Part shown: positions 13,655 through 13,855 of the stretch, piece after piece
Layout: each line of letters begins with the position of its first letter
Position numbering within the stretch: position 1 is the first letter of the stretch
Assembly: GCA_964016885.1 (NCBI GenBank)
Contig: OZ024754.1
Span: 40,052,001 to 40,116,000, forward strand
Source: Eledone cirrhosa
Lineage: Eukaryota
Direction of reading: 5' to 3'
DNA length: 64,000 bases
Notes under the pieces: model-generated
Told to the model about the DNA's origin: nothing
Database searches by the model: none
The model's input: only the letters and a program-made list of their open reading frames with translations
Program-made: the position numbers and the translations under genes

Positions 13655-13855
13655 TAGGAACGAGTAGGACCCCAACGGCTGAGCTCAAGCCGTTTCGACG
13701 GCTAATTCTGGACTTCTGAGTCCAGAATTAGCCGTCGAAACGGCTTGAGCTCAGCCGTCGGGGTCCTACTTGTTCCTATTACCCACTCTACTACCCTAAG
13801 TATTGAGTACTTTGGTGCGTTATGGTCCACCTGGTTCCTTACCACATTTCCTTCG

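What the first reader, a model, noticed from the sequence alone, without database searches (positions are those of the whole stretch)
13785..13808. Conserved bulged hairpin shared by the tails of unrelated families
Motif: RCTC-stem-loop-stem'-TN-GAGY. A: tactc tgc tat gta tc gagta (37715-35). B: actc tact acccta agta tt gagt (13785-808). C: tactc cagt cccacaa actg ta gagtg (25803-29). D: tactc caa aac ttg tc gagtg (27602-22). H: gctc tgt tctat aca ta gagc (61232-52, minus strand; compensatory A-U to G-C). E has a near-match at about 49477-98. The upper stem differs in each family but always pairs, the 2-nt 3' bulge is constant, and a second hairpin follows before the terminal microsatellite. 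I do not recognise this as a named RNA motif. It is a candidate RT/endonuclease recognition element.
Basis: partly seen in the sequence, partly recalled or inferred. Interest (0 to 1): 0.85.

Follow-up and report, generated by a model that had tools for sequence, protein, structure and literature searches.

The report
Twin start-site hairpins of Hydra retrotransposons
A small bulged hairpin, usually in two copies, is conserved just behind the ribozyme of Hydra-type jumping genes from several marine animals and lies a few bases past each of the two points where their copies end, so it likely tells the element's telomerase-like enzyme where to start copying.

Summary
The motif is real: 14 window hits against 0.43 in shuffles, and about 137,000 exact genome matches against about 600 for controls.

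The families are not unrelated. A, B, C, D and a fifth (K) are Hydra-clade Penelope-like retroelements whose proteins are 38-56% identical. H has a hammerhead but no ORF link was found. E is a Neptune-like tail without the motif.

The core is RCUC-Y…R-UH-GAGY-RCUNU. It lies in the 5' UTR/pLTR between hammerhead and ORF, usually twice, 59-90 nt apart. It recurs in marine-metagenome Hydra elements and in published sea-cucumber and coral consensi, with compensatory changes.

Copies end mostly 3-15 nt before hairpin 1 (short) or 6-11 nt before hairpin 2 (long). Hairpin 2 was predicted from this rule and found in B and D; the search failed for H. Inverted insertions pair one long with one short end in 82 of 88 cases.

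Best reading (inferred, 0.6): protein-bound RNA hairpins set the two internal reverse-transcription starts, creating the PLE 'tail'. Main rival: a DNA signal for endonuclease resolution. The 'second hairpin' claim is not supported. I did not find the motif in print.

The parts
13785..13813 (+). Hairpin 1 of family B (lower stem 4 bp, upper stem 4 bp, UU bulge at 13803-04) plus the conserved 3' flank RCUNU (13809-13813)
   Evidence: hit by a model trained only on other animals' elements (E 9e-4)
13777..13784 (+). UA-rich short-end site: copies without tail end here (last non-microsatellite base 8 nt before the hairpin in 21 of 24 B short ends)
13719..13764 (+). 3' part of the B hammerhead (stem II 3' strand, GAAAC 13737-41, stem III, GUC site at 13757-59, stem I 3' strand); the full ribozyme with a U3-A8-type core is in full-length copy L254
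   Evidence: read by eye; core variant described in PMC4209133; no Rfam hit in the window
13657..13714 (-). Inverted arm of the same insertion, with the short end (no tail)
13814..13856 (+). Rest of the tail up to the long end; in full-length B copies hairpin 2 begins 6 nt further on, then the ORF
13857..13898 (+). (TA)n target microsatellite
26020..26043 (+). Hairpin 1, family B copy
26577..26600 (-). Hairpin 1, family B copy
47707..47730 (+). Hairpin 1, family B variant copy
25804..25828 (+). Hairpin 1, family C (hammerhead core at 25699; Hydra ORF in L109, L111)
   Evidence: missed by the covariance model
27603..27621 (+). Hairpin 1, family D (hammerhead core at 27497)
48898..48917 (-). Hairpin 1, family D copy
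37716..37734 (+). Hairpin 1, family A (hammerhead core at 37651)
12135..12153 (-). Hairpin 1, family A copy
47237..47255 (-). Hairpin 1, family A copy
47408..47453 (-). Hairpin 1, family K (long loop), on a tail-only long arm joined to a short-ended inverted arm at 47454-47520
61232..61252 (-). Hairpin 1, family H (canonical hammerhead in longer copies; no ORF link and no hairpin 2 found)
   Evidence: top hit; negatives
35067..35088 (-). Hairpin in a further family (Z) with a hammerhead upstream in L030; clade not tested
   Evidence: missed by the covariance model

Best explanation
This is a conserved bulged hairpin of Hydra-clade Penelope-like retrotransposons, usually present twice between the hammerhead ribozyme and the start codon, which likely binds the element's telomerase-like RT-endonuclease protein on the RNA and sets where reverse transcription starts. 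Shown from sequence: element copies end at two places, mostly 3-15 nt before hairpin 1 and 6-11 nt before hairpin 2, each at a UA-rich patch, and inverted insertions carry one end of each kind. Inferred: the protein grips the invariant lower stem, the UH bulge and the unpaired 3' RCUNU, and holds the UA patch 5' of it against the nicked (TA)n target. Inferred: two protein units, one per hairpin, each prime from one strand of the cut target. The start at hairpin 1 gives the tail-less arm and the start at hairpin 2 gives the arm with the 'tail', so the tail is simply the distance between the two hairpins. Inferred: the two cDNAs are then joined head to head at short palindromes.
For: Location: full-length copies run HHR, hairpin 1, hairpin 2, ATG, RT-GIY-YIG ORF with DKT, RDD and CxCX5C (B: L254; C: L111/L109; D; K; A with a reduced hairpin 2). 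The B protein's best fold matches are TERTs. Conservation: relaxed motif in 15 of 21 metagenome Hydra 5' regions, two or more copies in 13; 28 single and no double hits in 1050 shuffles. Present in Hydra-1_Ajap (twice), Hydra-2_Ajap and Hydra-2_Amil consensi of PMC8557442, read by eye. Structure: first upper pair C-G 22 / U-A 7 with no mismatch, covariation reached by 0 of 500 shuffles; the swap needs at least 4 changes on a quick tree; G-U outnumber A-C 10 to 3 in upper pairs 2-4 on the sense strand. Ends: bimodal and locked to the hairpins although their spacing differs (71, 78, 90, 90 nt). Prediction test: hairpin 2 was predicted just past the long end and found in B (198+223 matches, control 0, about 93 of 100 listed) and D (106+143, control 0, 99 of 100 listed). 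TAT/ATA lies in -12..-3 in 31 of 36 against 0.28-0.32 background. Long-plus-short pairing in 82 of 88 inverted insertions, where independent choice allows at most half (p 2e-18). Precedent: a Poseidon PLE starts RT internally at two sites that bound the tail, and needs RNA 3' of them (PMC11167929).
Against: No binding or priming data exist for any Hydra protein. The two arms mostly overlap and stop at the same family-specific spot (42 of 61 within 10 nt; only 6 non-overlapping), which a fold-back model explains directly, whereas two cDNAs need strand displacement or two RNAs. Family H gave no hairpin 2. Hairpin 2 of family A is reduced to a plain 4-bp stem with a changed pair. Six of 21 metagenome 5' regions have no match (two are not true 5' ends, two show variants). 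Neptune- and Nematis-like elements here insert in (TA)n without the motif, and the Neptune-like one also has two ends. Isolated hairpins are only marginally stable, and with both copies present B folds best with hairpin 1 paired to hairpin 2. The Poseidon start site was reported as not homologous to the cut DNA, unlike the UA patch inferred here.
Confidence: 0.6

Rival explanations
1. The motif acts as DNA. One cDNA is made from the long start and folds back at a hot spot, and the GIY-YIG endonuclease recognises the hairpin (or the duplex GAGYRCTC site) to cut at the AT patch just before it, resolving the intermediate and creating the short end.
For: It gives exactly one long and one short end with equal arm lengths. 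PMC8557442 attributes the tail to EN-mediated resolution, and PMC11167929 cites that the D. virilis EN needed the tail for recognition. GAGY-RCTY is often an 8-bp palindrome.
Against: It does not explain why the long end also lies just before a second copy of the hairpin. G-U/G-T pairs are favoured on the sense strand. The family C junction is often a spacer-less palindrome centred on a natural 6-mer, easier from two annealing cDNA ends than from a fold-back loop (inference). In vitro both Poseidon ends were RT starts.
Confidence: 0.2
2. The hairpins are 5' UTR regulatory elements (translation autoregulation, packaging of the RNA with its own protein, or an internal promoter). The ends fall next to them only because the flanking UA-rich patches pair with the (TA)n primer.
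For: Hairpin 2 lies about 18-66 nt before the ATG. The UA patch is conserved 5' of both hairpins. The lower stem is invariant in sequence, as a DNA or RNA binding site would be.
Against: These UTRs are AT-rich throughout, yet 'other' end positions are rare (8 of 207 microsatellite-ended copies). The fixed 3-15 nt offset holds across spacings of 71-90 nt, and strict long-short coupling needs a mechanism at integration.
Confidence: 0.13
3. The motif is a substrate or partner of the upstream hammerhead: R-U-H before GAGY matches the NUH cleavage rule.
For: The bulge is UH and almost never UG (45 of 46). It is always a short way 3' of a hammerhead where the upstream sequence is present.
Against: The ribozyme's stem I 5' strand pairs fully with GAGY in 3 of 16 elements, and both arms pair in 1 of 16. 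In A, B and H, read by eye, the hammerhead has its own complete stem I and cleavage site.
Confidence: 0.04
4. Chance resemblance among AT-rich repeat tails.
For: The motif is short and single hairpins fold weakly. Two of 14 strict window hits lack the context.
Against:: enrichment above 30-fold in the window and above 200-fold genome-wide, and a model trained on other animals finds the window's copies.
Confidence: 0.01

Closest known systems
Hydra clade of Penelope-like elements (PMC8557442; section 11, passages and parts of the supplement read)
   Same: C-terminal GIY-YIG with CxCX5C linker, DKT, no CCHH, hammerhead in the pLTR, (TA)n targets, inverted truncated copies, optional tail. The motif is visible in three of its six new consensi.
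   Different: The paper's main text has no 'hairpin' and does not describe the motif, its duplication or its tie to the two ends. Tails here are 70-90 nt, not 30-40. Hydra is very abundant in this genome (61,054 first-look candidates).
Poseidon PAc internal initiation (PMC11167929; abstract, results and part of methods read)
   Same: Two internal RT starts bound the tail, RNA 3' of the starts is needed, AT-rich DNA is cut on both strands, and a dimer is predicted.
   Different: Its signal is an unmapped region in the first 172 nt of the ORF with an AC-rich stem-loop. The stretch printed in its Fig. S1 shows no RCUC…GAGY by eye. Here the signal is non-coding, defined, duplicated and conserved across phyla.
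3' stem-loops of 'stringent' LINEs and their SINEs, such as L2/CR1 (recalled, not from a call)
   Same: A small RNA stem-loop next to the priming site, read by the element's own RT.
   Different: Those lie 5' of the start and are copied. This hairpin lies 3' of its start and is not copied by that start, sits in the 5' UTR of the next tandem unit, and comes in a pair.
L1 twin priming (recalled, not from a call)
   Same: Two primers from one cut target give an inverted insertion.
   Different: L1 arms do not overlap and the second start is random. Here the arms mostly overlap and both starts are fixed by hairpins.
Telomerase RNA elements bound by TERT (template boundary, CR4/5; recalled)
   Same: TERT-like fold; an RNA structure beside the template would position copying.
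   Different: No sequence or Rfam match. It would define a start, not a stop. Analogy only.

Membership tests
Hydra-clade PLE (host element of families A, B, C, D, K) | Single ORF with RT and C-terminal GIY-YIG | tested here: met
   B 717 aa and C about 800 aa; TERT-like fold. A, D and K by homology of partial ORFs. Pfam itself gave no hit for C.
Hydra-clade PLE (host element of families A, B, C, D, K) | CxCX5C linker; CxxC and CxH in the EN; CCHH absent | tested here: met
   B, C, K; criteria
Hydra-clade PLE (host element of families A, B, C, D, K) | DKT in place of DKG | tested here: met
   A, B, C, D, K
Hydra-clade PLE (host element of families A, B, C, D, K) | N-terminal RWK motif | tested here: inconclusive
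   RW is present at the position, but as RWR (A, B, D) or RWI (C), not RWK
Hydra-clade PLE (host element of families A, B, C, D, K) | Hammerhead in pLTR; (TA)n insertion; tandem or inverted structure | tested here: met
   Cores by pattern and by eye; Rfam scored only one weak Hammerhead_1 hit, in L195; 3531-bp tandem arrays. Cleavage not tested.
Hydra-clade PLE (family H) | Link to a Hydra ORF | tested here: inconclusive
   Hammerhead and hairpin present; no run-through copy found; Hydra ORF pieces in L318 and L048 were not shown to be contiguous with H
Any Rfam RNA family (the hairpin itself) | Covariance-model match | tested here: not met
   No hit at gathering score in the window; none over the motif among the 150 of 173 weak hits listed or in six element loci
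General PLE tail signal (all clades) | Present in Neptune, Nematis, Naiad and Chlamys tails or 5' UTRs | tested here: not met
   No model hit in 9 Neptune/Nematis-like loci. Of 8 supplement hits for five 9-mers, 4 are at Hydra ends and 4 are isolated inside non-Hydra consensi (line breaks can hide matches). Penelope/Poseidon, Athena and Coprina not tested beyond one printed stretch.
RT-recognition stem-loop (works like LINE 3' stem-loops) | Bound by the cognate RT and required for priming | not testable with these tools
   Needs binding and TPRT assays; only positional evidence

The most novel reading that the evidence does not exclude
Hydra retrotransposons carry a pair of ancient, portable RNA 'start markers'. 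Each loads one telomerase-like RT a few bases downstream of an internal priming site, so one RNP primes both ends of a double-strand break at two programmed sites. This would explain the PLE tail and the inverted repeats as products of programmed twin initiation, and would give a roughly 30-nt tag for directing a compact RT-endonuclease to any RNA.
Probability: 0.4. Interest if true: 0.87.

Novelty: new variant of a known kind. Interest (0 to 1): 0.74.

Why it matters
How Penelope-like elements choose their template, why they start internally, and why they leave a tail at one end and inverted repeats are open questions; only one PLE protein has been studied full-length in vitro (PMC11167929). 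This gives the first defined cis-element candidate that I could find, with natural compensatory variants, young intact tandem copies (L254) and a sharp prediction: cDNA starts 3-12 nt 5' of each hairpin. PLE RTs are the sister group of telomerase, so the motif may show how a TERT-like enzyme positions an RNA template. It is also a practical marker for Hydra elements: about 137,000 exact matches in this genome, and it finds full-length copies.

Tried and rejected
Rfam: nothing for the motif.

The Pfam GIY-YIG search returned Neptune-like elements, not the motif's carriers. The DNA search for family C returned nothing, probably because common words are skipped. The GIY-YIG upstream of the A copy in L141 first suggested that A was Nematis-like; it belongs to a separate element and A's own ORF lies downstream.

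Searches for hairpin 2 in H: 0, 0, and 19 against 11 in the control, none read as real; began with degenerate letters and may be a technical zero.

The protein search gave one relative and viral contigs none. Earlier findings of this scan: none.

Homodimer prediction for residues 1-490 of B: no answer, so no evidence either way.

The hammerhead-substrate idea and the second spacer hairpin were tested and rejected. The antisense control (7 of 21) is not independent, because the motif is nearly self-complementary. The careful tree did not finish; the quick tree was used, and its labels for L168, L180 and K were set by eye and are loose. The script stopped after pair 5 and kept about four mis-assigned rows among its 46.

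Literature: nine answered searches found no description. Repbase and most subscription papers are not covered. The .gbk supplement of PMC11167929, all figures as images and the bioRxiv supplements could not be seen.

Full report
OBSERVATION. The window is G000:C14:40052001-40116000 in a 3.0-Gb, microsatellite-rich animal genome; cephalopod-like is my guess. The five strings A, B, C, D and H are where stated. A strict structural scan gives 14 hits against 0.43 on average in 100 shuffles. Genome-wide, the two sequence forms of the motif give 8,373+8,459 and 61,333+59,333 exact matches against 84 and 521 for the reversed patterns. Of the first 30 hits of the second form in genome order, 17 have a hammerhead core upstream and 28 a microsatellite within 100 nt downstream (controls 6% and 26%). 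Rfam has no model for it.

WHAT CARRIES IT. The window copies are short, 5'-truncated, often palindromic insertions in (TA)n. Longer copies of C lead upstream into an ORF ending in a GIY-YIG with a CxCX5C linker and no CCHH, the signature of the Hydra clade in PMC8557442 section 11. L111 is a near full-length C copy: hammerhead, hairpin 1, hairpin 2, ORF, hammerhead, hairpin 1, (AT)n. A, B (3531-bp tandem arrays, 717-aa ORF), D and K also run from the motif into Hydra ORFs. These proteins are 38-56% identical and group together with support 100 in a quick tree. So the families are related, although their UTRs fell into separate BLAST clusters. H has a canonical hammerhead in longer copies but no ORF link was found. 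E is the tail of a Neptune-like element and lacks the motif. The B model (pLDDT 83) has telomerase RTs as its six best fold matches.

BEYOND THIS GENOME. A metagenome scan kept 78 Hydra loci; 47 with a usable end were examined. The strict motif was in 10 of 21 5' regions and 8 of 37 3' regions (many of these end before the tail), against 6 hits in 71.6 kb of ORF. With one upper pair required, 12 regions had two copies, one had three, two had one and six had none; spacing was 59-70 nt in 11 of the 12. By eye, the published consensi Hydra-1_Ajap (two copies before the ATG), Hydra-2_Ajap and Hydra-2_Amil carry it. Hydra-1_Crog has a variant, Hydra-1_Amil a degenerate form, and Hydra-1_Obim shows none. 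In the whole supplement five 9-mers gave 4 hits at Hydra ends and 4 isolated hits elsewhere. A covariance model built from 29 metagenome instances only ranked the window's H, four B, two D, three A and the K copy as its top 11 hits and missed C and Z. It hit none of 9 Neptune/Nematis-like loci.

SHAPE OF THE MOTIF. With a sequence-only definition (46 rows, about four mis-assigned and kept), the bulge is UH in 45 and the 3' flank is RCUNU (C 41, U 42, final U 41). Upper pairs 1-4 form in 43/46, 33/42, 25/33 and 16/22, above permuted partners, while pair 5 does not. On the 29-row alignment, three lower pairs never vary, the first upper pair is C-G 22 or U-A 7 with no mismatch, and covariation exceeds all 500 shuffles (relatedness inflates such counts, but starred branches force at least 4 changes). 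Invariant lower stem, bulge and unpaired flank under a free upper stem is the pattern expected of a protein-binding site (inference). The spacer 'second hairpin' is not above chance.

THE LINK TO THE ENDS. Copies end at two places. After removing loci that had been found through the tail, most last non-microsatellite bases lie 3-15 nt before hairpin 1 (range +2 to -17) or 6-11 nt before hairpin 2 (range -1 to -13) in A-D, whose spacings are 71, 78, 90 and 90 nt; 8 of 207 microsatellite-ended copies end elsewhere. The true junction is blurred by shared AT bases. I saw hairpin 2 first in C and in the metagenome loci, then predicted it just past the long end of B, D and H. It was there in B and D with zero control matches, and not found in H; in A it is a reduced plain stem. 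TAT or ATA precedes the hairpin in 31 of 36 cases. Inverted insertions have one long and one short end in 82 of 88 (5 short-short, 1 long-long; 4 pairs of other classes left out). End mapping was possible only in this genome.

MECHANISM. PMC11167929 (abstract, results, part of methods and the text of two supplementary figures seen) showed for a Poseidon element that RT starts internally at two sites bounding the tail and needs RNA 3' of them. The simplest reading here is that each hairpin binds the protein and presents the UA patch 5' of it to the nicked (TA)n primer, and that two units prime from the two target strands. All of this is inferred. Against it, the arms mostly overlap and stop at shared hot spots (42 of 61), which the rival of fold-back plus endonuclease resolution explains directly; PMC8557442 favours EN resolution for the tail (passages). 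The second hairpin at the long end and the sense-strand G-U bias weigh toward the RNA model. A 5' UTR regulatory role is not excluded. A hammerhead-substrate role failed its pairing test.

NOVELTY. Nine literature searches found no description of the motif. Also read: PMC4209133 part 1 of 4, bioRxiv 10.64898/2026.07.22.740005 parts 1-2 of 5 and passages, and PMC7229834 passages. Unseen figures, supplements, Repbase notes and subscription papers could hold a mention. The comparisons with LINE 3' stem-loops, L1 twin priming and telomerase RNA elements are recalled, not from calls. The host is a known clade; the element is an apparently undescribed, ancient, duplicated cis-acting structure. Verdict: real, new variant of a known kind, interest 0.74.

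Noticed in passing
L254 (G000:C1:437199500-437208500), L255: Head-to-tail tandem arrays of family B with a 3531-bp period and open 717-aa ORFs, suggesting young copies; the hammerhead has the rare U3-A8-type core and a long stem II.
   Followed up: partly
window 49426-49540; L023, L031: The Neptune-like family E also has two ends, and a different, weak bulged hairpin starts about 9 nt after its short end: possibly a position-equivalent signal in another clade.
   Followed up: partly
L284-L288: A very young Nematis-like PLE with ORFs up to 1240 aa (150 scored hits at 98-100% identity over the EN, 32,857 candidates); its tail ends inside the ORF, as reported for Poseidon, and lacks the motif.
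   Followed up: partly
families A, B, C, D: 5' truncation and inversion junctions cluster at family-specific spots: about -71 (A, hammerhead stem I), -60 to -70 (B, stem II), -176 (C, a natural 6-bp palindrome), -190 (D); A and C were partly selected near these spots.
   Followed up: partly
L254:4315-4430: With both copies present, the lowest-energy fold pairs the 5' half of hairpin 1 with the 3' half of hairpin 2 (z -2.7): a possible switch between two folds.
   Followed up: no
window 47372-47520: Family K insertion whose long arm holds only the tail and stops at hairpin 1, joined to a short-ended arm: the non-overlapping layout expected from twin priming on one RNA (6 of 61 pairs in A-D are like this).
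   Followed up: partly
L007, L013, L030, L052, L062, L063, L064, L072, L358-L366: At least ten further repeat families carry the motif, some with very long loops or apparently in pairs; their ORFs were not traced.
   Followed up: no
window 63240-63259 and 40353-40373 (minus strand): Two strict hits without hammerhead or nearby microsatellite; the core of the first recurs with a proper 3' flank at G000:C1:4620589, so it may be a diverged member.
   Followed up: no
window 4973-5171, 13003-13187, 40541-40729, 44781-44963, 49552-49738 and others: An abundant repeat of about 190 bp, SINE-like by eye, and a second family near 7421-7751 and 13201-13600 associated with LINE 3' ends; unrelated to the motif.
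   Followed up: no
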